Assembly (NCBI RefSeq): GCF_026210795.1
Contig: NC_089429.1
Location: 6,138,001-6,202,000 of the forward strand
DNA: 64,000 bases
Source: Rhizophagus irregularis
Taxonomy: Eukaryota
Direction of reading: 5' to 3'
In this document: positions 10,871 to 47,376 of the stretch, piece after piece
Numbering within the stretch: position 1 is the stretch's first letter
Layout: each line of letters starts with the position of its first letter
The notes under the pieces: generated by a model
Database searches by the model: none
What the model was told of the DNA's origin: nothing
What the model saw: the letters and a program-made list of their open reading frames with translations, nothing else
Program-made: the position numbers and the translations under genes

Positions 10871-10902
10871 GCATGGCTTCGGCTCATGCAGAGCTTTACT
10901 AG
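10871..10902 (+). mobile_element. Helitron-like 3' terminus (hairpin then CTAG|T)
   Basis: gcatggcttcggctcatgc stem-loop, 9 nt, CTAG at 10899-10902 followed by T; partial copy at 45519-45541. Confidence 0.55.
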
Positions 10903-12014
10903 TATATAAAATTTGCTTAATTTACTATGCTATTTAGGAATTTATCATAGTTTTTTTTAATTTTATCTTTAATGTAATTTAGTAATATATTATGATTCAG
11001 CTTTTTTTTTAATTTTTATTTTATTTTATAGTACTGTATTTCTTTGTTTAATTAATATAATTAATATTCTTTTTGATCTATATTAGCATGCTTTTTTAAT
11101 TTTATCGATCTTATCTTTATAATTATTTTCTTAAATTTATTATTAGTTTTTAGTCTTGGTATTTCTTTAATTTCATTTTTATTTAATTAATTCTTTTTAG
11201 TATTTTTTTTTTTTTTTTGTTTTATTTGTTTCATTTTAATAATTTCAGATTTCTAGAAATTATTTATATGATATTTTTTAAAAAATTTATCTTACTTTAT
11301 TTAATAATTTTCTTTAGTTTGGTGTTTTTGATTCCATTTTTAACTTTAATTTTAGCATTTTTTTTTTAATTTTAATATTTTTTAATTCATAAAAATTTTT
11401 TTACAAATTTCTTATTATATAATCATATAATATTCATATATAACATAAATTAAAATAATGTTAACTTTAAAAAAGTATATAGCAGAAATTTGTTTGAAGT
11501 GTTTTCCCTTTTTATCATTAATAATATTAAATATTTGGCATAAAAACATTTTATTATTTTATACTTTTAATATATATAAATAGAAATTGGGGATTGCTAA
11601 ACATTGCCTGGGTTTTTTTTTTCAAATATGTCATATGATGTATCTAATTTTTGATCGGTTATTATTGCAAAAGGTATTTTTAAAAAGATTTTTTGCAAAC
11701 ATATTTATTCAAAATAATCTTATTGAATGAAATTTTATTTGCAAATATTAAAATTTAAGTCACACATTTATGATTTTAAAGAAAAAAATCACCATATTTA
11801 TTTTTATTGAAGTGTACAAATAAAACAAATAAAAGAAACAATAACAATAAATAAAAAAGATAAGTAAATTACAATGATCAAGGAGAAAGATGCTAATAAA
11901 AAAAAATGAAATAACAATGGAATAATGGAAAATAATAGAAGATGAAAGGGAGTAAAAAAGAGTAATGAGAAGTGATAGGAAACAGAAAGGAGAAATAGGA
12001 CATGATGAGAGATG

Positions 12015-12315
12015 AAAAGGAGTGATGGGAGACAAAAAGAAGTGATGGGAGACGAAAAGAAATGATGGGAGATGAAAAGAAGTGATGGGAGACGTAAAGG
12101 AGTTATAGGAGACGTAAAGGAGAGATGGGAGATGAAGAGGAGTGATGGGAGACGGAAAAGGAGTGATGGGAGACGAAAAGAAGTAATGGGAAGATGAAGA
12201 GGAGTGATGGGAGACGAAAAGAAGTGATGGGAGACGAAGAGGAGTGATGGGAGACGAAAAGGAGTGATGGGAGCAATGGGAGATGAAAAGAAGTGATGGG
12301 AAGATGAAGAGGAGT
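12015..12315 (+). repeat. ~20-bp minisatellite (GGAGTGATGGGAGACGAAAA)n
   Basis: About 15 diverged tandem units; reverse-complement array at 44505-44960. Confidence 0.9.
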
Positions 12316-15146
12316 AAAAATTTATTAAAAAAAAAGATCTCTAATGAAAAAAATTTCAAGCCAGGATTCTTTAAAAAAATACTATTTTCAATAAAATTTT
12401 CTAACAAATTTTCTAACAAAATTCTCCATCAAAAAAATAAAAAACTTTTCAACCAACAATTCTCTAAATATCCCCGATTAAGAAAAATTTCTAATGAAAA
12501 TCTTCCATCATAAAACACATTTTCCCTATTAAAAAAAAATTCAAAGATTCTTACCTATTAAAAAAATTCTCAAAAAATTTCTATCCAAAAAAAAACTTCC
12601 CTCCTATTAAAAAAAAAATTCTTTACCGAAATTCTCTATCAAAAAAAAATCCCCTGTTAAAAAAATTTACTAACGAAATGATCTATCAAAAAAAAAATCT
12701 TACCTATTAAAAAAAAATTCTCAGCGAAATTATTTATCTTCCTATTAAAGAAAAATTCTTTAATGAAATTCTCTATCAAAAACAATCTCCCTATTAAAAA
12801 AAAATTCTCTAATAAAATTCTCCGTCAATAATACTTTCACCTATTACTTTATCAAGTAAAACTCCCCTCCTATTAAAAAAAAATTCTTAATGAAATTCTC
12901 TATCAAAAAAAAATCTCATTTGTTAAAAAAATTTCTGACAAAATTATTTTTATCAAAAAAAATCTTTCTTATTAAAAAATTCTCCAAAGAATTTTCTACA
13001 AAAAAAAAAAAATTCTCAATGAATTCTCTATCAAAAAAAAAAAAATTCTCAATGAATTCTCTATCAAAAAAAAAAAAATCCTGTTAAAAAAAATTGTTCC
13101 AACAAATTAGGTATATGCCCAAAAAAAAATCTTATTAAAAAAATTCTCCAATGAAATCTAAATTTTTTAACGAAATTATCCATCGAAAATAAACTCAGAA
13201 ATGTCCCTAAAAAAATTCTCCAACAAAATTTTTATCAAAAAAAAAGTCTTTTTATTAAAAAAAAATTCCAAAAGAATTTTATCAAAAAAAGCCTTTGCCT
13301 ATATTAAATAAAAATTCTCTACAAAAGTTGTTTTATAAAAAAAAGCCAATAAAAATAAAAAAAAAATTCTTCGTGTAAAAACTATGTAAAATTTTTTGCC
13401 AAAAATTCAAATCACGTGATAAAATTTTTTTACTAAAAAAAAAAATTTCTATTTTTCGAAAAACTGACCCCGGCCGGGTCACGAGAATCTAAAATTTTTT
13501 TGTATATATTAACCTATAATTTTGCTGATCAGTCATACTTACTTACACTCGTGAAAAAGTATATACCAAGAAAGCACTCTCTGGACAACATTATGCACTG
13601 ACACGTGATATCGCTTGGCCAAATTTTCCTTAATTCTGGCCATGAGGGGTATGAATAACAAAATTGGGGTATAAAGAACAATGGCATATATGTATATTTT
13701 ATTTATATTTAAATGCTAAATGCATCACTTCTCGCTCTAAAAGATTCATAATGTGGTCCGACGGATAATTATACGGAATTTGAAAAATACATTGAAAAAT
13801 TTTTAAATTTTGAAATTAAATTAAAGTTTTGCATAATATTGCATTTATTGATAATGGATCAGGTATTAACCATTTTCATTTATTTTATGACGCCAGTGTT
13901 CGTAAAGATATCCGAAAAAGAAATGTTTAAAGCGTATATGCATAATGACCGTTGTAGGAATTACATCAAAACAATAAAAAAATGCGAAAACGCTTTTAAT
14001 TCTAGAATAAAATATTTTCTGACTTAATACACATATATAGTTTTCAAATAATCCCAGTTATTAAATTGGTTTTCTCCAACCTTTTGTTCTACTACCTTGA
14101 TGTTATTTGTACGCTTGTATTTTGCTTGTATTTTCGACCAATATTGTTGTTAAGTCTGATCTTAAATTTGATGTGCGCTTGGATTTATCGGAAAAAGTAT
14201 ATCAAAATCGATAATGGCTAAGAGAATTTTTTTTCTAAGGTTGATTTTCGAACAAATATAAGAAACAAAGGTATCCAAATATGTTTATATATCAGTATGT
14301 GAAAGTTGATATCATTTTAAAATTCTAGTTCTTCAACACAAATTGGATCATTTACGACTGGTGACGAAATAAATAGAACAGAATAGAACCGTACTAGAAA
14401 AGGTGCGAAAAAAAACAAGAAAAAAAAAATCCTATAGAACTTTCGTACTACATATACTGTATTGACGAATTAACAAACGAGATATTTAATTTCTATAAAT
14501 TCTGAATAATCTGAAGCTTTATGTTAAAAGTCTATTAAATTAAATTGATTTTCAAGAAATTTTAATACTCTTGCAACTACAACGTTTTTGAACCTTTGCT
14601 TTATAAAATTATTTTCTATATAAAATTAATTTCAGACTCCCTATTCAATATACCATTTGACATTAATTTATTACTTTTTTATCACACAATACTAATAGTG
14701 TATGATTCTGATAAAGAATGTATCTACTCATAGAATAAAATTTTTATATATAACTTCTGATTATGCTTAGCTAATTTATTTTCATCAGCCGTGTACCAAT
14801 TTCCTCAAGATATTTTGGCCCTACCAAAAATTCTAATTGAAAGCATTTCTAATGCTTTAAAGAGTCTCAATTAATAAAACAACAACATTAACACCATATT
14901 AAGTACTTTTGTCCAATATATAATCAAATTTTTGATGTTCATAAAATGTTTCGTTTTAATACGCGTCATTCATTTGTACCAGCTGTACATTACAATATGC
15001 CTGATAGCACAAATATGCAATAATATAATGTGAGACGATGCACTATAATCAAGTTAAGAAACAATGAATAGCAGATATACTCTTTTGAAGTCTAATTTTG
15101 TTTATCTTTTTTGTGTAATTATTTTACCTCCATTATTTATATAATT

Positions 15147-26745: not shown

Positions 26746-27279
26746 GAAAGGGAAATGTTAAATAATATCTTGGAAAAAACAAGGAAAAAATAATATTAGA
26801 AGCGGTACTGATTAAACAAGAAGATAGATCCTATAAAAAATTTTTCAGAGAAATGATCATGTGTCTGAGTTTCTTTGAAATAAAAACTAGAAAAATGATT
26901 ATTTATCAGAGTTTTTTCCAGATTTTTTTTATAGGGAGAATATACATACTGCCCAGATATTGACATTAATGAAGATATATATAACCCTTTAATTAAAGAA
27001 ACTGAAATGGAAGAATTGGACGAAGCAATAACTTTAACAAATAATGGGAAAGCAGCAGGAAATAGTAAAATAACATATGAATTTGGAAAAAAAGTAAACC
27101 ATTAACAAGAATGCTACTACTAAGTTAATGAATCAATATTTGATAGAAGAAGAATCAATAGATGCCTGGAAGAAAGGTCTAACACTAATATATCCAATAT
27201 CAAAACCAACAGATTGAAATAAGGATTTAAATAACTTTACAGAAACCTTCAATTTTCATAAATATGATAAACATATAAT

Positions 27280-27665
27280 TGTTAGATAGCAGTCATATTT
27301 TCGATATATAATAAAAATATTTTAGTACATGTTATATAATTATGAGATGATCAACAGATGTATAAAACATGTTCGTAATTTCCTCGATTTACGCTATTAG
27401 ATAATAGTCATATTGTTGATATATAATAAAAATATTTTAATACGTGTTATATAATTATGAGATAATCAACAGATGTATAAAATATGTTTGTAATTAACCT
27501 GATTATGCTATTAGATAACAGTCATATTTTCAATATGTAATAAAAATATTTTAATACACGTTATATAATTATGAGATGATCAACAGATGTATAAAACATG
27601 TTCGTAATTTCCTTGATTTACGCTGTTAGATAATAGTCATATTTTTGATATATAATAAAAAAATA
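27280..27665. repeat. ~115-bp subterminal tandem repeat, ~3.3 copies
   Basis: ttagat(a)..agtcatatt...gagatgatcaacagatgtataaaa recurring at ~115-bp spacing. Confidence 0.85.
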
Positions 27666-29129
27666 TTTTAATATTCTTTGCAGAAAACTCTAGTTTTCGT
27701 AAAATATGTTAGACATAAAAAATGATGAGAATTAATGATATTGGTGAATATTTTTGTAATATGAACAAAACAATTTTACAATATTTTCAAAATATGTTAA
27801 AGATGAACTTGAACTAACAAATATTTTCGTAATATGAATACAATATTTTGAAATGCATTAAAATATGATTGATATTAGCGAAACAGTTATTACAATATTT
27901 TGAAATATATTAAATATAAAATATAAACTTAAATTAATGATATTAGTGAATTCTAAGAATGAATAAAATATAGCTACTATTTCGATTCCCTATATCAAAA
28001 TTCATAAAATCTTTGAAATATAATTAACACATGAATAAAATATAGCTACAATATCAATTACATATGGCAAAATTCATATAATCTCTGTAATATAATTTAA
28101 CATATCTTTCTCCTATTTTAACCTGATTAACCACGCACTTTAAGATGATGAATTACTTCTCCTTAATTTGGTTCATTAAGGAGGTTCCTAACATAATGTT
28201 AGTGTTTCATTCACTTATCCGCTGGTGGTCAGACTAAAATATTCCTTACTAACTTTTCATTCTTTCTTACTTTTTACACCAATAATAATATAAAAAATTT
28301 TTAATACTGAAAAAAATATCGGCAAAAGCCCTATATTTATATTAATTTAGAATCACGTGTATCATGTGATTAACCTGATTAAAGCAATACTAATAATAAA
28401 TCCGCAGTTTGGTCTTTTTTTTTTAAACTTTTTTTAACTCTTTTTTTTAACAAAGTTTATTTTATTTTATTTTATTATTTAAACTTTTAACTATTCTTTT
28501 AATTTTTTCTAACACTTTATCAATGTTATAATATATTTCAACACCATATGGTCACCACTTTGTTATTTTTTACTCTCTATTTCCTATTTTCCTTCTTTCA
28601 ATCATTCCCTCCTCTCTCTCATACATAGTTTTAAAAAAAAAGTGAAAAGTACCCACAAGAGAAAATCAAAAATTCTTTAACATTTTACATTTTGATTTTA
28701 GCTTCCATATTGAATTTCATTCATTTGAAATTCACTTTGGTACAATAAATAGTAGGAGGTTGTTTAGTATTAGGCGTAAGTATATTTTGTTGTGTAAAAA
28801 ATGATAAGGAAAAGGAGATAATAGCAGTTTCTTCACAGATTCATATTTTTCAAATCTCCAAATATATAATTAATGCAGAGTATCAACAGAAATGATTGGA
28901 AGATATTCCAATAGTAGCATAACATATTGTTAAATACCCTTCAAATGCTGAAACTGGAAGCTTTTTTTAGGTAATTCTTTCAGCTCCTCCAGTAGAATTT
29001 GTCAATTTTGTTTTCTTTAATTGTTTTGTTTTTTATCAAATAATTTTTAATGGTTGTTTTCTTAATTCTTAGATGGCTTAGTTCTACGGTATTTAGAATG
29101 TGAGTACAGTAGGAAGTTTTTTTTTAATT

Positions 29130-30020
29130 ATTTATCTTATAGCAACGAAACATTTCTTAGATAATGGGATCTTCAGATATGTTGATTTTTGGTAAGAGTA
29201 TTCGGAAGTTTTTAAAAGTTTCAAAACATTTTACTAATGTTACAATTTACTCTCTTTTTTAGCAAGTTTTTAAATCTTTGTGCGCGTTGGAATTGAGTGG
29301 GTATTTCTTTTTTTAGAATTTCTATTTTAACAAATATTTATTAATGTTTTGATTTTTTTCTTTTGTAGCTCTTATTATGGCATGTCTGGCCTCTTTGGAT
29401 GCTGTCTCTTTAGATGTGGACTTTTGGTAACTTTTTTATCTTTTTTTTTTCACTTTTGACGAAATGAAACATTTATCAACATCCTTTCATTTTTCTTTCT
29501 TTTGTAGTTGCAGATTTTTAGGGTGTGATTTTATTATTTGTTTATTTTATATTTTTTAATAAACTTTTGCTAAATGTTCATTTGTTTCTTCTTTTTAGGC
29601 AACTGAACTGGCTGAATTTCTTTGGATGTGCAGGACCTCTTTGACGAACTGTCATTTGTAACATTTTGATTTTTTCTTTTTTAGCAGCTCTTTAGTTTCT
29701 TAGCTCAGGATTTTGGTTAGTCTCAAAATTTTTTATTAAATTTTTTTTATTTTTAGCGAACTTTACTAACAGTTTATTTATTTCTTTTTTTTAAACAGTT
29801 GTGCATACACTTAATTTATTGTAAGAATCTTCAGAATTTTTTTTAAAAAATTTTCTTTATTGAGCATTTTATTAAAATTTCAATTTTATTTATTTCATTT
29901 TTAGGCAATGGAACCTTGGATTTGTAGATTTTGGTAAGTATTGGAAGTTCCTTTGGTTTTATTTCTTTAACGAATTTCTTACTAATGTTTTGACTTTACT
30001 TTTTTTTTAAATGATCAAGC
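29130..30020 (+). other. Array of short GT-AG introns and micro-exons with no ORF
   Basis: Repeated GTAAG/GTATT/GTAAC ... TACTAA(T/C) ... pyrimidine tract-TAG units, e.g. ~29192-29262, 29302-29368, 29427-29507. Confidence 0.65.
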
Positions 30021-33000
30021 ATCTTGTATTGTATAAATAGAAATAAAATTACTTATTGAAAATTTACACGTCCACAAACAAGCAAATATACTAATAAAAA
30101 TAACCTACAGTGTATTGCAAAATATCATACAAGAAATCTAGACTAATTACTACTACTATTTATTATCCTACCCACAACTTACAGTATTTAACAGTCTGAA
30201 GAAAATCGCAGAAGAATAAGTGTGACCTCCAAATGAGATGGAAAGGAAGTGACCAGGAGAGTTGCAAAAGGGAGATAAGATGTGAAAATGGCGAACATAC
30301 AAAAAAGTACAGTAATAATTTTGTTTCCTTATCATTGAGAGGGTCGTACAGAAAGGAGAATCAGAAGTCACATGATTTGACTTGGAAATTTCCTTGCAAA
30401 TAAATCACAATGATCCAAATCAAGAATGTAACAAAAATTGTGCAGTGAAGGCATTATAATAGTTTTGTTTTTATTATAATTTCAATGTAAAATGTATAAT
30501 TGTAATATTTTAGTGTATTTTTAATATATAATAAATTGTATTACTTGCAATATATTATAATGATATTTTTGATATATAATAAAAATATAAATATCACATT
30601 TTTTTCATAAATTTTGACATATTTTTGATATATAGTAAACATATTTTAAACATATTTTAATCATGTGTTTTTTAACATATGTTCAACATATTGCCGTTAT
30701 CGAGTTACAACAGAGTTAACAGAAATGTATACGCAATATGTCAATCATATTTTAAAAATATTTTTACCATATTTTCAAAATCAATAGGTTTCTGCAAAGA
30801 AAATAAAACACGTCCAATAACATTAATTGAAACAGCTTAAAATTAATGTCAAAAATATTAACAAAACAGTTGAGTAATATTATAAGTTAATTTAATGTAT
30901 TAAAAGGGAATAATTTCACAGCATTAAAAAATAATAGTACATACAAATCAATAAAACTAAGTTATACAATCATTAATTAAAGATGGAAGTAGAAAAAAAA
31001 AAGAATTATGGATTATTTTAATGGACATAAGTAAAGCTTTTGATTCAGTTAATTCAATAATGTTAGAAAAATGTCTTAAAAGAATAAAAATACCAAAAAG
31101 GTTTATAAATATAGTAATAGATGTTGCATATAATAGATCCAATTGAGTAATAGTAGGAAAAGATCCATCAGATGAATATTATGTGCAAGATGATTGACCA
31201 AGGGAAAGTGTGGTCACCGATTTTACGGAAAATTTTTATGATCTATTATTAATTTATTTAGACAAAATTAAAGAACAAGATATGAACTTGAATGTGAATG
31301 AAATACAAATATTGAAGATGTAGCAGTAAAAACACAAATTAACGTATAATTGACAGCTTATATGGACGATACTACAATAATAGGAAAAAATAAAGAAAAG
31401 GTCTTAGAAATGATTGATATTTGTCACAAGATCTTTAGCTTTGATAACGTTCATTTTAATGTCAATAAGCACGGAGTAATAAAAATAAATAGTAAAGAAA
31501 AAGAATTAATTATTAATGAAGATAAAATAAGAAAAATAAATAATAGTGAAGAAGGGAATAGTTATTTAGGTTTTTTTTTATATGGAACAATAAAAGGAAA
31601 ATATATTAAAAAAGAATTAAAGATATTATTGATAAAGCAGTCAAAAATAATCAGATGGAAAAACATAACTGAAAAACAGGTAATAGCAATTTGAAATATA
31701 GTAGTCATACTGTATTATTTTAATGAAATAGGAATGTAAACAGTTAATGATTCCAATAAATAAGTTATGTAAAAATTAAGGTAAGGTAATACCAATGAAA
31801 AAAATAACAAAACTACCAATAATAACGCGGAAGTAAACGAACAAGTTTTAAAAGCTCTAAAAATTGCGGCCGTAGCGATTAAAGACGGTATAATTAGCTA
31901 TAACTACTCCAAATTATATAATATATGATAATAATATTATAGGACTTAAAAATATATACGGTGTATAATTAGAAAATATTAGTAAAAATATTTTATATTA
32001 CATCAATGATAAAAAGAACTTGGAGAGTTATTCAAATTCCATATGAAAGAAATGCAAAATGAATTATAGACTGCTTATTGTAACAAAAATTCAATAAATA
32101 CAAATGTGACGCATTAATGTTGTTGAAAAGATCTTAAAATTTGTGATTATGAGATTATGAATCTCATACAATTAATACAATTAAAGGGGTTGCATTAAAA
32201 TAGAAGATATATTAAATGAAGAACAATATATATTGTTCTTAAATAATGTTTAGAAAATAATAATACAACATTAATGAAATGGAAGCACATATGTAAGGAA
32301 GGTAATATCATAACAATAAAAGGCAAGCTACCAAATGGTATAAAATAATTAAAGGTCTCCATTTAAATAAATATTATTTGGAAAAATTAAAATTAAATAA
32401 CAAAGAATTATTAATTAATAGAACGCATAATTATGTAGAAAATATAGGTAAATTAATAAAGAAAAATTTATTAACATGGAATGATGAAAACAAATTAGTA
32501 TTTGGAATATATAAAAAGAAATCACAAAGTAAAATCATGAATATATTGGAATGCATTTAATTCATAAAGAAGATGAAAATGATGAAGATTCACTGAATTT
32601 AATAAAATGTAAAGATTATGAAAAAAATATTAAATATAATGGATAAAATAATTACAGATGTTGAACAAGAAAATGATATATAAATAGTAAGATAGTTATA
32701 ATTAATAAATATTGCAAAATGAATAATGAAACAAACAAGCGGATAATAAGTGAAATGGAGAAATTAATTGAAATGAATGAAATGGAAATATTGAGTTTCA
32801 TCAAGAAATACCAGAAGGTCAAAATAATAATAATTTGTTGTCTTGGACAATTATATTATTAGATCAAAATAATGCTGAAAAAGTAGAGTTAATGAGTATT
32901 ATAATAATATTGATACTAGTTAAAGACCATAGTAGAATAACTTTATGATTAGATAAAAATACATAACAATATTATTAATTTTAATCTAGAAAAAAGTGAA

Positions 33001-34561
33001 TGTAAAAGGCTGAACAATATATATATAAATTATATATGAAATATAAATTTATATTTAACTGGATAAAAGAACATTCATTAATATCATTTCATAGATAAAA
33101 ATGAAAGATAAAATATTAGAAAAGATAAAAAAGATAAACAGAACCAATTGATCCTAATAAAAAAGCATCATATTATATGAAATAGAAAATCAATCTTATA
33201 CACTAAGATGGAAAAAATGTCCAATATCAGCAGGTGATTATAGAAACTGGGTGAAAATGTATAATAGGATAAAATACAAAAGTGAAATGTTAGCAAGTGA
33301 ACATTTGATAGATATATTCCAGTTAAATGTATTACAAGAATACGATTGGAACACTACCTTTAATCTCATCAAAAAAGGAATAAGCAATAATATTTGTAAC
33401 TAATGTTTTAGATAATGAATTATGAGCATATAAAATTAAGAAGAATTACCAACATATGAAATTTTATTTAAAAGAGTTAGTAGTGCAATCATAATGAAAG
33501 CATGTATCAGATGCTGTAGTAAAATTGATAATTATAACATGCCTGAAAATTTAGATCATGTATGGAAATGTACAAGGAAAGAATATACAGAAGAAAAAAT
33601 TATGTATAATACATTTACATGAAGCGCTAACTGGTATAATTATAAAGTAGATAACATTAATGAGTTCAACAAAAATATTAATATCTGAGAATACTAATAG
33701 ATATGCATTAAAATATAGAGAATTAGTAACGAGGGGATTATATGATGATCAATAAAATAGGGAAAACTAAGGATGAAAAGGCGATGGTTAAGTAGTATGA
33801 AACATGAATGTTAGGATTATTGCATGGTGCTAAGTAAATAATATATACATTTTTTGCTCAGCAAAGAAAAATACAATTTTAAGAAAAAAATACACATTAT
33901 CTGTTATATTGACAACATTAATAGCAAATATTAAATATTATTAGGGTATATTGTTGTTTAGAAAGTAAATACATAAATAAAACAAAGAAATGTAAATATG
34001 AGTGAGGGTGAAACATAAACATATATGTTAAAAATAGGTTATTTTTTTTATTTTTTTATATATCTGATATGTAATTTATTTATAAATTTCATTAAAATAA
34101 TAAAAATAAATGCGCATTATTAACAAAAAATATAATAAAGGTTTTTTTTCATAAATACTACTAAGGAACTATACAAAATTGACTATAAATCACATATTTA
34201 TTGAAAAATATTAATGAAAGTGCCAAACTTGATTCTTAATTCCACCATAGTTTAATACATGAAATTATGGATTAAGCAAATGATTGCCTCACTAATTCAT
34301 TACACATGATTAAAGTTAATCTTCAAATAGTCGACTTGCATGCACCTGCTTGTAATGTGTAATTTTGTAATCCATGCTGCTAATTAATAAAAAACTTTTT
34401 TTTTTGGTACTTGAATGAATATAACTTTTCCTAACAATATTATATACATATTCAAAATGTCTGAAATGAATGAATTGTTTAACAAGTGTATTGATAAAGT
34501 TATTGCTAAAAAGCATTAAGAATATAAAAATTCAAGAAATTAGTATCAGTGGCTTTGGAAA

Positions 34562-34841
34562 TAGGGATGGAATCGGTTAAAAACGAGTTGACTCGAGTCG
34601 ATTATGGAACTGATCTTAAATTTAAAAGATTCTGGATCTCTTGGGCTTAAACTACTACTTTTAATCATAAAAACTCTTCTGAACTTCAACCCGATTTCTC
34701 AAGAACTGACTCAAATTGAGTCATCTGACGATCACACACCAACTATCATTTGAAGGCCAATCATTTTTCTGATTAATCATCATCACATGCTCTACTTGTT
34801 GATGCACGTAGTTAGAACTGACAAACCGATTTCCATCCCTA
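34562..34841. mobile_element. hAT-like MITE, 8-bp TSD TTTGGAAA
   Basis: TIR tagggatggaatcggtt / aaccgatttccatcccta; tttggaaa at 34554-34561 and 34842-34849. Confidence 0.92.
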
Positions 34842-36786
34842 TTTGGAAAAGTTTATCGTGCAAAATGGAAAATTCGTATCAATATTTTGCATTAAAATCT
34901 CTTCTTAATCTTCAGTTGATGAAAGTACTATCAAGGTGTTCATGATGTGATTATAAAATATGTATTGGTAATTAAATAATTTAGATTCATATTTATTTTA
35001 TGTATAATTTGAATAGATTGAATTTCAACGTGAAGTTACTTTCCATAATAACTTTTATGAAGTTACTAGTTACAACTCACTATTTCAGATCAAGCATATT
35101 ATTATATTACAATCAATTTAAAGTGATAAATTTTTTATTATTTTAGAGAATCAAAATAACAGTGTTAAGAAATATCTTTTAGAGTATACTGATGGTGTTC
35201 TCTTTACAATTATTTGAAAGAAAATTTTGAGAAACTTACATGGGAAGATAAACTTAAACTTGCTTTTCAGTTTGCTGTGCTCATGCTAAGACATAATACA
35301 TTATATTTGGTACTAATTTATTCAATTTATTGTAAAATAATCATTACATCAATTATATTATTTTACCTTAACAATTTTTATTTTATTTTCTTATTATGGC
35401 ATTCTTATAATAATGTATTAGCCAAAATACTATCAAATTGGCCAGATTTTGGATTGTCAAAAAGAATTGAAGCATCAATTAAAAAGAAAAAAGATTAATT
35501 TAGTGTAGTTCCTTATATGGATCCAAAAATAGTTCAGTGATAAATCTTATTCTTTAAATAAGAAGAGTGACGTCTACAGTATAGGTGTACTTTTATGGGA
35601 AATATCAAGTAGTAAACTACCCTTTTATGTGGAAGAGTCATATGATTGTAATTTAGCCTTCCAAACTGTACAAGGTCATAGAAAAAACTGTTATTCCTGA
35701 TATACGTTAAGCTTTATACGTACTGGTGAATTTAATACTTTTTTTATTTATTTATGAAAATTGTATTATAATTGAAATTTTTATTTTCTTTAGAATGCTG
35801 CAGTGGGACAACAACCAAGAAGTTGTTAAAAGATTAAATGCAAAGATTTATCAAAAAAAAAAAAACAAAAATATTGATAAGAAACTGATCAAATAACAAA
35901 TTAATATAGTTTTAAATAGTATTGAAGATTATCACAGAGAGAATTATCTCAAATTATCCAAGAATTTGACAAAATGTATACAAAAGGAATTATGAAATTC
36001 ATGACAATCAAATTATTAGCAAAAATATTTACCAGTAAATGATCTGCCGTAAGTGTAATAGTTACATTGCAGAAATTTTTAAAATCAAAACCATATCATG
36101 ACCAAGTCGAAATTATATCATAGACCTTATAACCAAGGTTTGGTCACAATATGGTCTCACATCGTTACAATAAGTTCAAGTCAATCGTTTGTATAGAGTT
36201 GATGCATATTAAGGAGATCATCACCTGATTTAACTAGGTCGTACAAAAATAGTATCGAGATTAGTTAAATCCATATTAACGTTATATTTAATTTATATTA
36301 AAGTTATATTTAATGTATAGTAATGTTATATTTAATGTATAGTAAAGTTGCATTTAACATATGTAAAAGTTATATTTACTGTATCATAAAATTGTATTCA
36401 ATATATATTAAAGTTGCATTTTCAATGTCGCAAATAAATCGTAAAGTGTTCTATAAACTTTATTTAAGAAATATTAAAGTATTCTATTCTAAATCTAATC
36501 GTACTCAAATCTATTATTATTCTAATCTATAAATAAAATTATTCTAATATAAATTAAAGAAGGTTTGAAATTGTTCGAAACTTAGGATTCCTGTAGAAGC
36601 CGTTTCCCTACTAAATAAATAAATTAATTAAAGTTATTAAAACGATTTTTAAAAGAAAGTTTTTGAAGTTGTTTCAAAAACATACTTCCAGGCTCCAGAG
36701 TTCTGGTAATGAAGTTGGAGCTGGTGTCTACAAAATCGTTAGTTAACGTATCGTACTTAAGAATTCAAGAACAAGCCATCTGAAAC

Positions 36787-39052
36787 CTAAAGAAAGAAAA
36801 TAAATTTACGTTAGTAAAAGAAAATGAAACAAAAAAAAACAATGAAAAAAAAATTAAACACTAACCTTCATTCTGAAACCGAAATCTAAAGAGAAGACAA
36901 TTGCCGATTTCTCTACAAAAAAAAAAAAAAAGTTAAAATAATGTTTTTTTTTAAAGTTTTGAAATTTTTCTTCTCAAAACTTACCTATTGGGATTCCGGT
37001 ACCCAAATCTACCTATATTCGCCTATTGAAATCCCGCACATCCAAAGTTCCCAAAAACCAGCCATCTAAAAAAAGAAAAGAGCAAACATTAGTAACATTT
37101 CATTGAAAAAATAATGCTCGCAAAAATCCACTCACCGAAATCCATGTCCGTTCATGAAATTATTTTATTTTGCCTATTGATCCTCATTGCTAATTGTGTC
37201 TCTCAACAACTTATTCAAATGTTAATATATTAATAATATTGGAGATGAATGATCTAAATAAAAGATTTTCATCTTTTTTTCCTCGTTGAAGACCTATTTA
37301 TGATAAGATACAAGGATATTACAATTGTTATATTGCTTGTTCACTAAAAAGACGTAATAGGCGAAAAGCTGTCTAAACTACAAAATGCAAAACACGAAAT
37401 GTTAGTTAACGTTTCGTTGCACTAAAATGAAAAAATAAAACAATTTTTAAGATTATACCTTCAAAATGAGTACGGCCTTTGAAATGGACCTACAGAAAAA
37501 AAATGAAAACGTTAGCAAAACATTTCATTAAAAAAACCCCCCTGAAAGAAAAAAATTCAAAATTTTACCTTTGAAAATGGTAGTCCACTTCGAAATGAAG
37601 TGAAACGGAGTTTTAAACCTAAAAAATGAAAAACAAAAATGTTAGCAAACGTTTCGTTAAAAACCAAAAGAAAACATTCAAAGATATTATACCTTCAAAG
37701 CTGGACCTACTAAAAAAAAAAACGTTTGCAAAACATTTTGTTAAAATCCAACCCCACCGAATTCTCACGTCCAAAGAGCTGAAGAACTAACATCATCTAA
37801 GAAAAAGAAATAAAAGAGAATTTAATAGTTGTTTAAAAAAAATTAAAAAGACATTGCAAAACTCAGCAAAATACCATGTCAAAAGAGCTGAGGAGCCGCC
37901 TAAAAAAGAAAAGGAAAAGAAAGGGGGAAGTGGAGCAAAGTGGAAGACAAAAGAGAGGGAAAGGAAAGTACGAGGAGGGGAAAGGGGAGGAACGAGAAGA
38001 GAAGGGGAAAAGATGAAAAGGAGGAAAAGGAAGAATGAGAAGGGAAAGGAAAGAACAAGAAGAGGGAAAAGGGAAGAACGAGAAGGAGGGGAGAGGGAAA
38101 GGGAAGAACGAGAAGGGAAAGGAACGAGAAGGGAAAGGTAACTATTCTACGTGTCCAGACTTGTTTAAAAATAAGAAAACTAAGGCAATTTTTTACCGAG
38201 ATCCTATGTTCCAGATCCGTCTAAAAAAAAGAAAAAGTACTGTATCCAGAGAGACCCGAAAAGCCATCTATAAAATGAAAAATGAAAAATTAACAAGCAT
38301 TTCATTGAAAAAAGTAAAAAGAAAAAGAAAAAAAGCACTTACTTTAAATCTGCGTTCAAGTCGTACAAGACCTACAAAAGAAAAAAATGAAAATGTTAGT
38401 AAAATGCTTCGTTAAAAGAAATAAAAAAGTGAAATTCGAAGGTATATACCTTTAAAATAGGAGTCCAGCCTTCTAAATGGGCGTCTTGAGCCTACAAAAG
38501 AATTAAACAAAAACGTTAGTAAGACATTTCGTTAAAAATAAAAAAAAAAATTCAAAGGTGTATACAAAAGACAAAAAAACGAAACCATTAGTAAAATGTT
38601 TCGTTAAAAATAAAAAAAAAGTAAAATTTAATGGTATATTTATACCTTTAAAATAGTGTCTTGGGCCTACAAAAGAAAAAAATGAAACTGTTAGTAAAAA
38701 CATTTCGTTAAAAAAAATAAAAAATTTGTAGGTATATACCTTCAAAATATCATATAACCAAAATCTAAAAACAAAACTTACCAAGTTCCGGAGTTATAGG
38801 AAAGAAGTCGAAGTTCTACAAAAAAGATTTCTTTAGATTATTAATCTCGTATCATGTATCAGGATTGGATAGTCAAATTCTGAGGAGCCCCCTAAAAAAA
38901 ATAAAGGAAAGGAAAAAGGATGAAGGGAAAGGAAAAAGGGGAAAAGATTAAGGGAAAGTAAAGGGACGAAGGGAAGTGAAAGGGAAAAGAAGGACAAAAA
39001 AAGAAAAAAAAGTTTTAAAAAATACTAATTTATATTATAAGCTAATTATTAC
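36787..39052 (-). other. Array of about 13-15 homologous short spliceosomal introns separated by micro-exons, no ORF
   Basis: Minus-strand GT...(T)ACTAAC/GCTAAC...pyrimidine tract-TAG introns at ~36787-36865, 36913-36984, 37066-37135, 37378-37459, 37490-37568, 37619-37692, 38268-38342, 38372-38449, 38667-38739. Confidence 0.75.
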
Positions 39053-39400
39053 CATTATTCGACCAGTAGATCATTACTAATTAGGTCGAATAATTTTAAT
39101 TTTGGCTGAATATAGGCCAAATTATTATATTCATGTTTTTTTTTTATATTTTCGTTAAATTATGTAATTTTTATGTTGTGTTACTTCCTGCTTTTACATA
39201 AAATAAATAAATAAAAATAAATAATAAAAAAAACATTATTTGAAGTTAAATGAAAATATTAAAGTTTTTGTCTGGTTAAAAATTTACTTGGATTTGTGTA
39301 TATTTTATATGAACTCTAATAATTAATAACTTCACTAAATTTAAATTTAATCTGCTACGTCCGCGTGGGTTATCTTTTGGCTAGTGTAATTTATAGCATA

Positions 39401-41151
39401 GGTAAAAATCCATGTTATTGGCTAATTTATTGTCATATGATTCAATTTAATGTGATCAGCAAATATTTTTTTTTTTGATAATTATTAGTAACTGTAAGAG
39501 AACATATTACATGATAAATAAGAAATACACGTTGAAATTTGATGAAAGAAACATCTATCACCAAATCTCTCCATATTAAAAATCTTCATATAGTAAAACA
39601 AAGTATACAAAGGCCTATATGCCAATATGTTCTAACTAAACTAAACTAATCAATAAACTGCCCTAATATTCCAATCAATGAGATCTATCCACTCCATCCA
39701 TGTCATTCCATTGTATTCCTCAAAAATCTTACCTGAACCATATGATAAAACAGCCCGTTTCTTAGAATCAAACGAAAAAACTCCCAAGAAATCCAAGATC
39801 CCTCCACAGATGGATAATGATTTATATATATATATATATATGTTGTGCCTCAGATCGATTCTTGCCTCAGATTGAAGCTCACGCACCTCAGATTGAGATT
39901 GTCATCTGACGCACCTTAATTGCTAATAAAAATGAGCTATAATTAAACATCAAAATTTCCAATTTTAATGTATTTTTAAGTACTAAGTAAACTTATTTAT
40001 CATTATTTTAAGTATACAATCCTATAATTTCAGATTAATTGGAATCATACTTATTAAATTTTTTCATTTGAAAAATGACTTAAAATTTAATGATTTTTCA
40101 GATAAAACACAAATATAAACTTCAATATAAATCGGATTTACATAAAAATTTCAGGAAACATGTAACTCATTATGGTGCACAAGTTTGTTTATGTTACAAA
40201 AAGTGGTTTAATTAATGAGAAAAAAAGTTTACTTATAACAGACTTTATTGAATGATTCAAATGAGGTGCGTCAGGTGACAATCTCAATGTAAGGTGCGTG
40301 AGCTTCAATCTGAGGCAAGAATCGATCTGAGGCACAACATATATATTTCACGTGTTGACTAAAATAAACTCTATCCACATGTGGTATTCTATATTTAGAA
40401 TAAATCTTCAATTTTGGTTTACTGGTTTACTGGCAACTCACCATACAGGACGCGCAAATCCAAAATAATTATCAACGTGATATGCTGCACTTTTCAGCTA
40501 AATTTATGCCGTTGTGATCGGCAAATATATGTAATGTGTTACTTTAAAAAAAGGAAAAAAAGCTTACTATGAAATTGGTAATACACTGCATAATAACAAC
40601 TACTCAAATTTTCGGAGGTTAGAATATTGTTTGTAGTAATTGTGTCTTTTGCATTGACACTAGTTGGTATTCGAAGGCGGGCACTCCATAACCTTCTTCA
40701 ATTCTTCGTTGCGCCATCTGATAAATGGTATTTACGAATGGTAATAGTGTAGTTGACGCTGAGGCGCCTTGAATGCATCAATTTTTGTTTGTCGTTGGGC
40801 GCATTGCTACCCGAAACAACGCTATTTAGAAATTGGTCTTTACAGATAGATTTCTTTTGTGGTGGGTTGTTTCTTTGGATTAGGGGAGTATTAATCATTC
40901 TGATTTGATCACGATAGAATCTCGCCAGTATGCATGAGGGTAGAAAAAGAAGTGATATGTTCGCCACATCGCTAGACATGATGTAAGCGGCAGGGTTCTA
41001 CAAGTTGTTCCACAACGGATATAAAATCCTAAACAAATCACATGGGAGCCTATAAAGTGATAATTTTAATGAATTTATTATCACGTGACAGAAATTATTG
41101 GCTAGCAAGTGTTGATCATCACGTGAAATTGCCGACCAATGGATTTTTACC
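39401..41151. mobile_element. TIR element nested in the 5.5-kb element
   Basis: ggtaaaaatccat / atggatttttacc, flanked by TA on both sides. Confidence 0.65.
39841..40339. mobile_element. Ginger-like MITE, TGT...ACA termini, ~75-bp TIR, inserted in (TA)n
   Basis: tgttgtgcctcagatcgattcttgcctcagattgaagctcacgcacct and its exact reverse complement; TATA on both sides. Confidence 0.85.
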
Positions 41152-43114
41152 TATATTTTATTGACTTTTTTCATTTTATTATAATTTTATACTAATTAAC
41201 TTTTATTTAATAAAAGAGATGACAAAAAACAAAAAAAAATATAAAAAAACAAAAAATACAAAACTCTTAAGAAACTGGTAGATTTGTCATTAAATAATAT
41301 CTAATACATCGAAAAAATATCTTGGATTAATTTTTTCGACTAATTTTTGATGATATTTACTACCTATTCAAGACCATTCTTTTAATACGTTACAACCTCG
41401 AAAAAGCATGCCATCGATAATTTCACGATTATGTTAAGAGACCGTCTGAAACCACATCATCACGTGTTGGATACCAAATTGTTGTAATTTGATGGTGATC
41501 ACTTAACCGCATAGTAACAAATCACGGGTTTCTGCAATGTAATAATATTACAGAATTTATTTTTGAATGCTAAATAAAAGAAATCATTATTCATTAAAGG
41601 AAGAGATACTTGATTATTTTAATAATCAAAATAAAGAAATTTATAATTGGTTATCTTAACAATCAAGATTATAATTCAATTTTTTACTTGGAATTTATAG
41701 TTTTATAGAATCAAAACAATTGGAAATAGTACGATGGTATTTAAACTAGTATTTATTAATATTTTGAATAAAATCATATATTGGCACAATATTTTGTTAG
41801 CTATTGTTATAAATATGACTATAGAACTTTATGAAATGATTCATTAACTTTTGGATATTTTAAAAGGGCAGCCAAGAAAAATTTGGCAGTCACACAATGT
41901 GTATAGGTCATCATTATAGCAATGTATTATTTAGTACTCTGAGTAAATTCAAACCTTTCTTTTTACTGGCATAAAAAAGTTGCAAAGAATGGAAATAGAG
42001 AGATATTAATCTTGGCTATTATTATAAAGTTGGAAAGGTGTTAAAAAAGAAAAAGATATAGATAAAGCAATTGGTATAAAAATCTGTAGAACAAGGGAAT
42101 AATAAATATGCTCAAAATTACTTAGAAGAATTAATGAAAACCAAGTAATTTATGTAAATTCATTTGTAATCTATTTATTAATAAATCATTTTTACTATAA
42201 ATATAATGTAAGTGTTTTAAAAGTTCAGGTTTGAGGTGTATTCGAATCCAACTTGTGTGTAAAAGTCATAACTTAGACTCAACTTGATCCAATTATAGCC
42301 TGATTCAGTTTGACCCACCAATTTGTATTTAAATAAAAAAATTTAAATTTTTAGTTAAAAATATAATAAAAATATTCAGGACAGTATTGATTCATCTTGT
42401 GTATAGTAGAGTAAGGAATAATTTAACTATTGTTTGCTTTAGTCAGATTAGCTTTTTTGTAAAGCTAATAAAAATTTTGCTATAAATAGGTGCACGCATC
42501 TACACATACATTATGTGTGTCTCTACTTTGACACTACCATTCTGAAAAAATAACTTCCAACATTGTATCCTTGGAAAAAATACCATACAGGTATATTTTT
42601 CATTATATATGCTGCTAATGTTCTTCACAAAAATTTTGTAGATGACTTTTATCATGATTTTTGAGTTTGTAATAAAAGAACTTATTATATATTAGCTGAT
42701 CAAAAAAATCTAATTTTTTTGGGGTGAAAAATATGATTTAGCATAATATGTTTCCTATTAAAAATAACTAAATAATTTCAAATTCAAAGTTTTTTGTATA
42801 ATTTCTTTATTACTGACATCCCATTAATGATGTATGAATTCAGCTATGTGTTTTCTGATTTGCCAAAAATGAAATTCTAAGTATTTAATAATAATATTTG
42901 TTCTAGTTGAATCATTAAATCAATTTTGCACTTCAAGTTCTTAAATTGCTAATAGCCACAAATTTACAATTAATCAAAAATTCTTAGCATTATATGCAGC
43001 TTATCTGCAATATAATGATATAAAGTATGGCAAGCCGAGCTGGACTAAACTATCAGGCATTGGGCGGGTGAAAAATCAAGCATGGATTGACAAAATGTTA
43101 CACCGTGCCTGACA

Positions 43115-43520
43115 TCTTACCTGTTCATGCTTGATATTCATCTGTCCGTGCTTGATATTTATCTGTACGTGTTTGATATTTTTATCTGTTCATGCTTGAT
43201 GTTTATCTATCACGTGCTTGATATTTTTATCTGTTCATGCTTGATGTTTATCTGTACGTGCTTGATGTTTTATCTGTACGTGCTTGATGTTTTATCTGTA
43301 CCGTGCTTGATGTTTATCTGTACGTGCTTGATATTTATCTGTACGTGCTTGATATTTATCTGTATGTGCTTGATATTTATCTGTACGTGCTTGATGGTTT
43401 TATCTGTACGTGCTTGATAGTTTTATCTGACCATGCTTGACATTTTTATCCGTCCGTGCTTTATGTTTTTATCCATCTGTGCTTGATATTTTTGTCTGTC
43501 TGTGCTTGATGTTTTTGTCC
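43115..43520 (+). repeat. ~20-22-bp subterminal tandem repeats (GTGCTTGATRTTTATCTGTAC)n; mirror array at 46740-47090
   Basis: About 18 units read directly. Confidence 0.9.
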
Positions 43521-44504
43521 AACTGTGTTTGATTTAATCCAACTATGTTCGATAATTTTATCTTTGTCAAAAATTAGTTTCTTTGTCAGCACAGGGTTGA
43601 TATATTGTCGGTCATATGTTTTTAAGTTTAGCATAGTTTTAAAAAAAATTTTTTTTTTTTATTGGCTTTTTTTTATAAACAAATTTTATAGAGAATTTTT
43701 ATTTTTAATATAGGCAAAGGCTTTGTTTGGTAGAATTTCTTTGGGAATTTTTTAATAAGATTTTTTTTGATAAAAAATTTCGTTAGAAAATTTTTTTCAT
43801 TGATAGGGACATTTCTAAGTTTTTTTTTTTTGATGATAATTTCGGAGAATTTTTTTTAATAAGATTTTTTTTTTGACATATACTTAATTTGTTGGAACAA
43901 TTTTTTTTTTTAACAGGAGAGATTTTTTTTTTTTTGATAGAGAATTTTATTAGAGAATTTTTTTTTTTTTGATAGAAATTTCATCATAGAATTTTTTTTT
44001 TAATAGGTAAGATTTTTTTTTTTTTTTTTGATAGGATCATTTCGTTAATAATTTTTTTAACAGGAGATTTTTTTTTTTGATAGAAAATTTTGGTAAAGAA
44101 TTTTTTTTTTAATAGGAAGGAAGTTTTTTTTTTATAGAAATTCTTTTGAGAACATTTTTTAATAGGTAAGAATCTTTGAATTTTTTTTTAATAGGGAAAA
44201 TGTATTTTTTGATGGAAGATTTTCGTTAAAAATTTTTCTTAATCAGGGATATTTTTTTTGATTGAGAATTTCATTAGAGAATTGTTGGTTGAAAAGCCTT
44301 TTTATTTTTTTGATGGAGAATTTTGTTAGAAGTCTCAATAGAAAATTTTATTGAAAATAGTTTTTTTTTAATAAGGGTATCGAGAATTTTGGCTTGAAAT
44401 TTTTTTTTAATAAAGAATTTCATTAGAGATTTTTTTTTTTATAAAAAATTGATTGAAAATTTATTGGAAAATTTTTTATTAAATTTTACAATTTTAATAA
44501 ATTT

Positions 44505-44960
44505 TTACTCCTCTTCATCTTCCCATCACTTCTTTTAATCTTCCATCGCTCCTTTTCGTCTCCCATCACTCCTTTTCGTCTCCCATCACTTCTTTTCATC
44601 TCCCATCACTCCTCTTCGTCTCCTATCACTCCTTTTCGTCTCCCATCACTCTTTTTCGTCTCCAATCGCTCCCTTTCGTCTCCTATCACTTCTCTTAATC
44701 TTCTCATCACTTCTTTTCGTCACTCATCACTCCTCTTAATCTTCTCATCACTTCTTTTCGTCTCCCATCACTCCTCTTCATCACCCATCACACCTCTTTG
44801 TCTCCCATTACTTCTTTTCGTCTCCCATCACTCCTCTTTGTCTTTCATCACTTCTTTTTGTCTCCCATCACTCCTCTTAATCTTCCCATCACTTCTTTTT
44901 TTTTATCTCCCATCACTCCTCTTTGTCACCCATCACTTCTTTTCGTCTTCTATCACTCCT
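44505..44960 (-). repeat. ~20-bp minisatellite, reverse complement of the 12015-12315 array
   Basis: (TCTCCCATCACTCCTCTTCG)n-like units on the plus strand. Confidence 0.9.
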
Positions 44961-47376
44961 TTTCATCTCTCATCATGTCCTATTTCTCCTTTTTGTTCCT
45001 ATCACTTCTCATTACTCTTTTTTACTCCCTTTCATCTTCTATTACTTTCCATTACTCCATTGTTATTTTATTTTTTTTTCCTTGATCATTGTAATTTACT
45101 TATCTTTTTTATTTATTGTTATTGTTTCTTTTATTTGTACATTTCAATAAAAATAAATATGGTGATTTTATTCTTTAAAATCGTAAATAGACTTAAATTT
45201 TAATATTTGTAAATAAAATTTCATTAAATAAGATTATTTTGAATAAATATGTTTGCAAAAAAATTTTTTTAAAAAATATCTTTTTAATAATAACCGATCA
45301 AAAATTAGATACATATTTGAAAAAAAAAACCCAGGCGATGATCGCCCTGGCGATATTTAGCAATCCCAATTTTTATTTATATATATTAAAAGTATTTAAA
45401 ATAGTAGATTTTCAAAAATGTTTTTATGCCAATTAATGATAAAAAGAAGAAACACTGCAAACAAATTTCTGCTATATACTTTTCTTAAAGTTAACATTAT
45501 TAACTTTTTAATTTATGTCGGCTCATGCGGAGCTTTACTAGTATATAAAATTTGCTTAATTTACTATGCTACTTAGGATTCTATCATAGTTTTTTTTAAT
45601 TTTATCTTGATCTTATTAATGTAATTTAGTATTTTTTTTAATTTTATAAAAAAAGATCTCTAATGAAATTTTTTATTTAAAAAAAAAAATTTCAAGCCAA
45701 AATTCTCGATACCCTTATTAAAAAAAAAACTATTTTCAATAAAATTTTCTATTGAGACTTCTAAGAAAATTCTCCATCAAAAAAATAAAAAAACTTTTCA
45801 ACCAACAATTCTCTAATGAAATTCTCAATCAAAAAAAAATTTCCCTGATTAAGAAAAATTTCTAACGAAAATCTTCCATCAAAAAATACATTTCCCTATT
45901 AAAAAAAAAATTCTTTACCGAAATTTTCTATCAAAAAAAAAAATCTCCTGTTAAAAAAATTATTAACGAAATGATCTATCAAAAAAAAAATCTCTCCTGT
46001 TAAAAAATTAAAATTCTATGATGAAATTTCTATCAAAAAAAAAAAAATTCTCTAATAAAATTCTCCGTCAAAAAATACTTTCACTTATTAAAAAAAATTC
46101 CCAAAAGAATTCTTTATCAAGGAAAACTCCCTCCTATTAAAAAAAAATTCTTAACGAAATTCTCTATCAAAAAAAAATCTCACTTGTTAAAAAAATTTTC
46201 TAGTAACGAAATTATCTATCAAAAAAAAAATCTTCCCTATTAAAAAAATTCTTCAAATAATTTTCTGCAAAAAAAAAAAGAAATTCTCAATTAATTCTCT
46301 ATCAAAAAAAAAAAATTTCTCCTGTCACAAAAAATTGTTAAGTATATGTCAAAAAAAAAATCTTATCAAAAAAAATTCTCCAATAAAATTTCTATCAAAT
46401 AAAAATTTTTAACGAAATTATCATCAAAAAAAAAACTCAGAAATGTTCCTATCAATGAAAAAAATTTTCTAACGAAATTTTTTATCAAAAAAATCTTATT
46501 AAAAAAATTCCCAAAGAAATTCTATCAAACTAAGCCTTTGCCTATATTAAAAGTAAAATTCTCTACAAAATTTGTTTATAAAAAAAAGCCAATAAAAAAA
46601 AAAAAATTTTTTAAAACTACGCTAAACTTAAAACATGTGACCAACAATATATCAACCCTGTGCTAACAAAGAAACTAATTTTTGACAAAGATAAAATTAT
46701 CGAGCATAGTTGGATTAAATCAAATACAGTTGGACAAAAACATCAAGCACAGACGGACAAAAATATCAAGCACAGATGGATAAAAACATAAAGCATGGAC
46801 GGATAAAAATGTCAAGCATGGTCGGATAAAACCATCAAGCACGTACAGATAAAACCATCAAGCATGTACAGATAAATATCAAGCACGTACAGATAAACAT
46901 CAAACACGTACAGATAAAACATCAAGCACGTACAGATAAAATATCAAGCATGTACAGATAAACATCAAGCATGAACAGATAAAAATATCAAGCACGTGAT
47001 AGATAAACATCAAGCATGAACAGATAAAAATATCAAGCACATACAGATAAATATCAAGCACGGGACAGATGAAAATCAAGCATAAACAGGTAAAATGTCA
47101 GACACAGAGTGACATTTTGTCTAGCCATGCTTGATATTTTATCGCGCAATGTCTGATAATTTTGTCCAACTCGGCTTGCCATAATAAAGAAATTAGAAAA
47201 CTAAGGCTGATAGTGATTTTACTAATAAATGATGGTTAAAATAAGCTGATTCAATTAATTCATATGATTTTCAATAGTGTAATCTTTATTTTTGTTACCA
47301 ATATTTTTTTAAAAAATTTAGCATTATTTCTTATTGAAATGATAGATGATGGCAAAATAGAATATCTGTAGTTTTA

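What the first reader, a model, noticed from the sequence alone, without database searches (positions are those of the whole stretch)
29130..30020. Second intron array, opposite strand, in a related TIR element
Seen: about 7-8 plus-strand GT-AG units with the same AACGAA...TACTAA intron signature and short exons with recurring GGATGTG/GATTTTGG motifs. They lie inside element 27235-30799, downstream of a CACGTG/CATGTG block (~28354-28370). A second, diverged occurrence suggests the array is a family trait rather than a one-off.
Basis: partly seen in the sequence, partly recalled or inferred. Interest (0 to 1): 0.75.

Follow-up and report, generated by a model that had tools for sequence, protein, structure and literature searches.

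The report
Intron array riding a fungal transposon
A small jumping gene in a root-symbiotic fungus carries a worn run of about ten intron-like units that code for no protein and resemble a run in a neighbouring jumping gene; it is likely cargo picked up and carried along, and its splicing was not seen.

Summary
The observation largely holds. Window 29001-30010 (+) holds 10 exon-intron-like units, 7-8 of them full length, far above chance. They lie in a 3565-bp terminal-inverted-repeat element (A, 27235-30799) inserted in a dead LINE; contig depth suggests about five near-identical copies. The units are distantly but measurably related to array B (36611-39025, minus strand) in intron motif, exon words and overall identity. 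The exact AACGAA..TACTAA signature occurs only once in A. There is no reading frame. B's ends match complete Plavaka-like (CMCT) transposase elements at 70-93%, and neither of those 2 holds an array. A shares only about 13 terminal bases with them. So the array is not a trait of the whole family; it is likely cargo of non-autonomous derivatives. In three runs only guessed to be RNA, contigs cross A's introns unspliced, and no listed joint matches an intron. No genome was held, so the genome-wide co-occurrence test is open. Real and apparently undescribed, but likely passive.

The parts
26800..27234 (+). Decayed LINE reverse-transcriptase sequence, left flank (host of the insertion)
   Evidence: Frame ...KPTD*NKDLN runs on as NKTRPITLIETA right of the element; RVT_1 E=0.0005, below the curated cut-off, at 31350-31691
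27235..27276 (+). Left terminal inverted repeat of element A
   Evidence: 81% over 43 nt to the right end; contigs of runs X18 and X19 begin to match exactly at 27235 after 312 and 83 unmatched letters
27282..27673 (+). Subterminal tandem repeat, 3.4 x 115 bp
   Evidence: TRF; 74-79% to locus L045, which starts with the same kind of end
27676..27717 (+). Second, inner left-end-like repeat
   Evidence: covered by a contig of depth 113 in X14, like the rest of the element
28354..28368 (.). CACGTG/CATGTG block; possible promoter word (untested), common in the window
   Evidence: 14 CACGTG in 64 kb
28748..28923 (+). Segment with a diverged relative elsewhere in the genome; 28749-28892 reads as a hydrophobic 48-aa frame (possible captured gene piece, unconfirmed)
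   Evidence: Joint 28801-28866 at depth 20 in X14 and 178/115 in X18/X19, with loose ends at 28748 and 28923; frame; no protein homologue or Pfam match
29001..29072 (+). Predicted intron 1 (72 nt, weak donor; alternative donor 28971)
29100..29160 (+). Predicted intron 2, shortened: keeps CAACGAAAC, lacks the branch point
29192..29262 (+). Predicted intron 3 (71 nt, GTAAGA..TACTAAT..TAG)
   Evidence: crossed unspliced by an X19 contig
29301..29368 (+). Predicted intron 4 (68 nt)
   Evidence: 74% to B intron 38739
29427..29507 (+). Predicted intron 5 (81 nt)
   Evidence: 77% to B intron 38449; crossed unspliced by X19 and X20 contigs
29523..29598 (+). Predicted intron 6 (76 nt)
   Evidence: 74% to B intron 38342
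29658..29684 (+). Truncated unit 7 (27 nt, likely too short to splice)
29716..29798 (+). Predicted intron 8 (83 nt, TACTAAC)
   Evidence: crossed unspliced by an X20 contig
29821..29904 (+). Predicted intron 9 (84 nt)
29934..30010 (+). Unit 10: the only full AACGAA..TACTAA signature in A; ends TAA, acceptor lost
   Evidence: 74% to B intron 38565
30758..30799 (-). Right terminal inverted repeat of element A; its first 13 nt equal the end of L075
36065..41539 (.). Element B: transposase-less derivative of a Plavaka-like family, in a decayed gene; flanked by TA on both sides
   Evidence: ends 72% over 407 nt and 93% over 278 nt to L075; removing the element and one TA restores the host frame
36611..39025 (-). 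Array B: better preserved related intron array (14 curated introns)
   Evidence: two database gene models join its exons

Best explanation
The stretch is a run of about ten short exon-intron-like units with no reading frame inside a 3.6-kb transposase-less DNA transposon; the units are likely aged copies of one spliceable unit that the element picked up as cargo and now carries passively, and the element is likely moved in trans by a CMCT (Plavaka-like) transposase. Shown: the units, their excess over chance, their kinship to array B, the element's ends, the lack of a transposase in A and B, and the link of B's ends to complete transposase elements without arrays. Inferred: an ancestral exon+intron unit of about 100-120 bp was multiplied head to tail in a transcript that was once spliced; such arrays entered non-autonomous derivatives separately (B's ends are far closer to an array-free autonomous element than to A); A then transposed to about five near-identical copies with its array already worn.
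For: Units above chance. Units defined by the internal block alone, without asking for GT or AG: donor found in 15 of 15 and acceptor in 12 of 15 in A+B, against 1 of 8 and 1 of 8 elsewhere in the window, so the founder was likely a real intron. Kinship to B. No frame: longest stop-free run of A's internal exons 64 aa, shuffles mean 52, 95th percentile 77; exon lengths in mixed phase. Wear: A introns are closer to B introns (62.3%) than to each other (60.1%); 3 of 10 units are damaged. Carriage: X14 contigs inside A, array included, have depth 96-136 with 0-3 other letters per 165-424 nt, against 19-22 for flank contigs; contigs in X18 and X19 start to match at 27235 exactly. No transposase trace in the window (tblastn of 120 homologues, no hit). 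L075 and L120 are complete, carry a D-D-CxxC-H(3)H-E protein and no array. Contigs of three RNA-guess runs cross A's introns unspliced (weak).
Against: The source locus of the array was not found, so capture is inferred, not shown; no genome was held. Only two arrays are known, both from this window. Seven of ten units keep both GT and AG although they are only about 60% alike, which fits selection for splicing at least until recently. In the RNA-guess runs the listed contigs of A gather over 29.1-30.3 kb, which would fit transcription of this part. A's link to the Plavaka-like transposase rests on about 13 terminal bases; its subterminal repeats match L045 instead, for which no transposase was seen. 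The target-site duplication of A is ambiguous (2 nt AA, or 7 nt if the LINE frame is to be restored).
Confidence: 0.58

Rival explanations
1. The array is a working non-coding module: a multiply spliced (or stalled-splicing) RNA that elements of this kind keep because it changes how the host silences them or their autonomous partner.
For: Splice dinucleotides kept across diverged units; both transposase-less elements in the window hold an array; a promoter-like word lies upstream; RNA-guess contigs lie over the array; two annotations of R. irregularis call several of B's introns. Spliced transposon-derived lncRNAs are reported in a mildew fungus (PMC10648671, abstract seen); splicing linked to RNAi is known from other organisms (search listing).
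Against: No joint at any predicted intron among the 6 listed; contigs bridge 6 of A's 10 units unspliced. A is worn. No conserved structure, no Rfam match. Complete relatives do without it.
Confidence: 0.22
2. The array is the ruin of a multi-exon protein gene with repeated micro-exons, captured by the element.
For: Intron sizes are ordinary; gene predictors built 128-aa and 76-aa models from B's exons; a hydrophobic frame lies just upstream in A.
Against: Mixed exon phases and chance-level frames in both arrays; the two B models use different exon subsets and have no Pfam match (P0121) and no relatives beyond this locus among 1.84 billion representatives (3 hits: itself, the second model, one unrelated-looking repeat).
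Confidence: 0.1
3. It is a T-rich minisatellite or a transposase-binding repeat array whose GT, AG and branch-like words are coincidence.
For: TAACGAA also recurs in the subterminal arrays of other long-inverted-repeat elements of this window (12.7-13.2 kb, 43.8-46.5 kb); no splicing seen; CACTA elements can carry satellite arrays (PMC8978399, passages).
Against: Donor, branch word, T tract and acceptor stand in the right order and spacing on one strand only (13 acceptor-like sites sense, 0 antisense); the other T-rich arrays score at most 2 per tile; the array is interior, not subterminal; TRF does not call it.
Confidence: 0.07
4. The introns are introners: one mobile intron family that inserted many times into one transcript.
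For: Introns are sequence-similar (B-B 65%, best pairs 81-84%).
Against: The exons are related too, which points to duplication of whole units; none of the top-scoring controls in host genes forms a family; no stable hairpin.
Confidence: 0.03

Closest known systems
Pack-CACTA / Pack-TYPE non-autonomous elements (PMC6379663, passages read)
   Same: Terminal inverted repeats from a CACTA-type family, no transposase, interior unlike the autonomous partner, different interiors between members.
   Different: There the interior is traced to host genes and the duplication is 3 bp; here no source locus was traced, the cargo is a non-coding tandem intron array, and the flanks fit 2-3 bp.
Plavaka / EnSpm in the CMCT clade (PMC12730594, passages; prevalent in R. 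irregularis per PMC11075540, passages)
   Same: Partner protein has C(2)C and H(3)H motifs between D and E; B ends read CA..TG; 2-3 bp flanking duplications.
   Different: Pfam Plavaka scores 25.1 and 25.3 bits in 2 of 7 full-length homologues, under the 26.3 cut-off, and none in the other 5; A and L075 end CT..AG; ends are neither TGT..ACA nor CATCA..TGATG. No intron arrays in the passages seen.
Introner-like elements and sister (stw)introns of fungi (PMC8469720 abstract; PMC3609843 search listing)
   Same: Sequence-similar spliceosomal introns that decay towards ordinary introns.
   Different: Those sit singly at unrelated positions in genes and have stable hairpins; these are in tandem with related exons, in a transposon, without a stable fold.
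Transposon-derived lncRNAs of Blumeria hordei (PMC10648671, abstract)
   Same: Non-coding transcripts arising from fungal transposons.
   Different: Those are shown by RNA data and mostly antisense to coding transposons; here expression and splicing are unproven and the unit is a tandem array.

Membership tests
CMCT (EnSpm/Plavaka-like) non-autonomous element | Terminal inverted repeats shared with a transposase-bearing element | tested here: met
   B: 72% over 407 nt and 93% over 278 nt to L075. A: only the terminal 13 nt, so weak for A
CMCT (EnSpm/Plavaka-like) non-autonomous element | Partner transposase with C(2)C and H(3-4)H between second D and E | tested here: met
   YYDD, ADLPQG, GCRTC, LHANFH, KEMVH columns in alignment A2; definition from PMC12730594
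CMCT (EnSpm/Plavaka-like) non-autonomous element | CA..TG termini and 2-5 bp target-site duplication | tested here: inconclusive
   B CA..TG with TA; L075 CT..AG with TAA; A CT..AG with AA, or 7 nt by the LINE frame; a conserved outer A could belong to the element instead
Plavaka proper (PF18759) | Pfam match at the curated cut-off and Plavaka A/B termini | tested here: not met
   Best 25.3 bits against 26.3; termini differ
Pack-TYPE element | No transposase inside | tested here: met
   tblastn of 120 homologues against the window: no hit; no long ORF in A
Pack-TYPE element | Interior traced to host chromosomal DNA | tested here: inconclusive
   28748-28923 has a diverged relative at single-copy depth but no protein homologue; source of the array not found; no genome
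Spliced long non-coding RNA | Transcribed and spliced at the predicted junctions | tested here: inconclusive
   Runs only guessed to be RNA; contigs unspliced; 0 of 6 listed joints at a predicted intron; contigs drop rare forms.
Spliced long non-coding RNA | No coding frame | tested here: met
Introner / introner-like element | Similar introns at unrelated gene positions with unrelated exons | tested here: not met
   Exons are related; units are in tandem; genome-wide spread not testable
Introner / introner-like element | Stable intron secondary structure | tested here: not met
   Mean z -0.3 (A) and -0.4 (B), controls -0.25; no consensus pairs
snoRNA-host or other Rfam RNA array | Rfam match within introns | tested here: not met
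   0 matches at E up to 1 in 27000-42000

The most novel reading that the evidence does not exclude
A protein-free, multi-intron module is passed between different non-autonomous CMCT transposons of arbuscular mycorrhizal fungi and kept because splicing, or stalled splicing, of its RNA sets how the host's small-RNA and methylation systems treat the element: a transposon accessory made of introns.
Probability: 0.17. Interest if true: 0.78.

Novelty: new variant of a known kind. Interest (0 to 1): 0.42.

Why it matters
About two thirds of R. irregularis repeats were unclassified (PMC11075540), and many small-RNA loci lie in unannotated regions or genes without known domains (PMC8647823). These elements name one class of that material. 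They also show a source of false orphan genes: two database protein models are stitched from array B's exons. If the arrays are kept for their splicing, they give a direct test of whether introns shield or expose a transposon to silencing, since array-bearing and array-free relatives exist.

Tried and rejected
No whole genome held. Sequencing-run search: no RNA holder listed. Reads could be laid only on element A, so splicing of B is untested; parts of A and its flanks without cover in X18-X20 are not used as evidence. The joint 28801-28866 was first taken for splicing and rejected: ends TG..AT and it stands in the DNA-like run too. Hairpin around the branch point (AACGAAA or AATGAAA against TTTCGTT or TTTCATT): not supported; B beats 100 of 100 upstream shuffles and A 93 of 100, but neither beats 320 control introns (p=0.21, 0.34), energies are ordinary, no consensus fold. 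Rfam none; tRNA none; the bacterial promoter scan is irrelevant. Pattern scans for arrays: 44 viral loci and 72 prokaryote loci were chance; 0 of 200 loci held has an array (best 3 units per tile). Metagenome end-pattern scan: 9 of 83 loci matched A or B, the other 74 were set aside as chance; viral end scan 1 locus, no match. Protein searches: 28749-28892 none; B frame gave only the locus's own gene model. Protein atlas gave no answer. The Glomhopper paper (PMC13465315, abstract and passages) concerns Crypton elements without inverted ends: not this. Earlier-findings look-ups by place and sequence were empty.

Full report
Setting. The window is 25% G+C and repeat-rich, with F-box-like and kinase-like ORFs (family labels recalled). 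A frame of the window matches a database protein of Rhizophagus irregularis at 91%, and that protein maps back exon by exon at 95-100%, so the source is R. irregularis or very close. No genome was held.

The units. Reading 28900-30050 gives 10 units on the + strand: seven of 68-84 nt with GT and AG, one of 77 nt that ends TAA, one without a branch point and one of 27 nt. Exons are 15-59 nt. A strict rule finds 6 units in A against 0.46 in 500 shuffles (0 of 500), and the top 7 of 230 window tiles lie in A or B. Acceptor-like sites number 13 on the sense strand and 0 on the other. Units found by the internal block alone have a donor in 15 of 15 and an acceptor in 12 of 15 cases in A and B, against 1 of 8 and 1 of 8 elsewhere (all). 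The curated lists were made by eye with GT and AG in view; only this last test is free of that bias.

Kinship with array B. The exact AACGAA..CTAA signature is in 6 B introns and 1 A intron. A profile learnt from 14 B introns scores 9 A introns at a mean of 5.1 bits, against a median of 1.3 for 342 intron-like controls (p=0.002) and 0.76 for shuffles (0 of 2000); only 3 of the 9 exceed the controls' 95th percentile. The 27-nt unit was left out. Exons: A against B z=5.0, against B's reverse strand z=1.4, A against A z=2.6. CTCTTT[AG]GA occurs 4 times in the window, twice in each array on its sense strand. Intron identity A-B is 62.3%, A-A 60.1%, B-B 65.4%, A-control 57.6%. There is no colinear alignment, only 45-70-nt patches at about 75-82%. 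The kinship is real, modest and old; A looks like worn copies of a unit that B keeps better.

Coding. Exon phases are mixed, and the longest stop-free run of A's internal exons is 64 aa, inside the shuffle range. Two database models (128 and 76 aa) are built from different subsets of B's exons; they agree with several of my B introns but are predictions, have no Pfam match (P0121) and no relatives beyond the locus.

The element. A runs 27235-30799, has a second left-end-like repeat at 27676 after 3.4 copies of 115 bp, and splits a dead LINE frame. In run X14, six listed contigs inside A have depth 96-136 with 0-3 other letters, and two flank contigs 19-22; I infer about five near-identical copies, array included, though the tool warns that depth is no copy number. 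Contigs of X18 and X19 begin to match at 27235 exactly. A metagenome scan for the end motif gave 83 loci, 9 of which match A or B. L075 and L120 are complete elements of 6.7 and 7.6 kb with a divergent gene pair; the larger protein has 407 relatives, the named ones listed nearly all Glomeromycota, and D, D, CxxC, H(3)H and E columns as defined for CMCT transposases (PMC12730594, passages). Pfam Plavaka is just missed. B's ends match L075 at 93% and 72%; A shares about 13 terminal bases and otherwise matches L045. No transposase trace is in the window.

Is the array a family trait? Neither complete element, nor any of 7 partial ones (286-3169 nt read inwards), has an array; L045, the only A-type locus, ends after 887 nt, before an array would be expected. 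Since B's ends are much closer to array-free L075 than to A, the arrays are not simply inherited with the ends. I infer separate entry into non-autonomous derivatives, by capture or exchange. This rests on two arrays.

RNA. Only A was laid, on four runs whose RNA label is a guess; X14 behaves like DNA. X19 bridges five units unspliced in one contig (29107-29723), X20 bridges 29427-29507 and 29716-29798, X18 the 27-nt unit. None of 6 listed joints is at a predicted intron; one joint row was dropped at repeats, and 1064 pieces and 203 loose ends were not shown. Two X14 joints skip 97 and 312 nt, about one and three units, but have sides under 30 nt and are weak. Contigs drop rare forms, give no strand, and a five-copy element could appear from DNA carry-over, so this neither shows nor excludes splicing.

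Structure. A possible hairpin round the branch point failed against controls; Rfam gave nothing.

Literature. Eight searches and term look-ups in three R. irregularis papers (PMC8647823, PMC11075540, PMC10234402; passages only) showed no description of such arrays. Supplements and curated repeat libraries were not seen and may hold these elements. The red-algal Plavaka section (10.1101/2025.02.11.637652, section 8) describes coding accessory genes, not arrays. Two earlier scan notes report like units in transposons of other genomes; they are unchecked leads.

Verdict. Real feature, related to array B, non-coding, carried by a recently copied non-autonomous element. Most likely passive, worn cargo (0.58); a selected spliced module stays possible (0.22). 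New variant of Pack-type CMCT elements; interest 0.42.

Noticed in passing
L055:775-2649 (-), also L057: A 624-aa TnpB/Fanzor-like ORF (PF07282 E=6e-22, PF12323) lies about 500 nt inside a Plavaka-like end in two metagenome contigs.
   Followed up: partly
window 28748-28923: A diverged relative of this segment, lacking or replacing 28802-28865, is at single-copy depth in X14 but depth 178 and 115 in X18 and X19; may be a well-expressed host gene piece captured by A.
   Followed up: partly
window 39834-40346: A 513-bp element with 89-nt inverted arms (94%) nested in element B.
   Followed up: no
window 9329-13311 and 43134-47063: Two related elements with very long inverted arms and 20-, 21-23- and about 50-bp subterminal repeat arrays; the 50-bp units contain TAACGAA on their A-rich strand, the same word as in the intron arrays.
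   Followed up: partly
L075:822-2384 (-), L120:6725-9217 (+), L062, L091: The Plavaka-like elements carry a second, multi-exon gene pointing away from the transposase, with KRGRKK stretches and an Asn-rich repeat; no convincing Pfam match for the pieces tested.
   Followed up: partly
ends of A, B and L045-L120: The base just outside C[AT]TT is A in 12 of 15 ends, so either the target is biased or the true terminus is one base further out.
   Followed up: partly
window 29224-29260 and 29528-29563: Short intron-end stretches match other contigs with the same loose ends in two runs each; these may be other arrays of the family or chance.
   Followed up: no
window 37900-38140 and 38900-39010 (-): Two related pyrimidine-rich simple-repeat blocks inside array B, each ending in an acceptor-like AG.
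   Followed up: no
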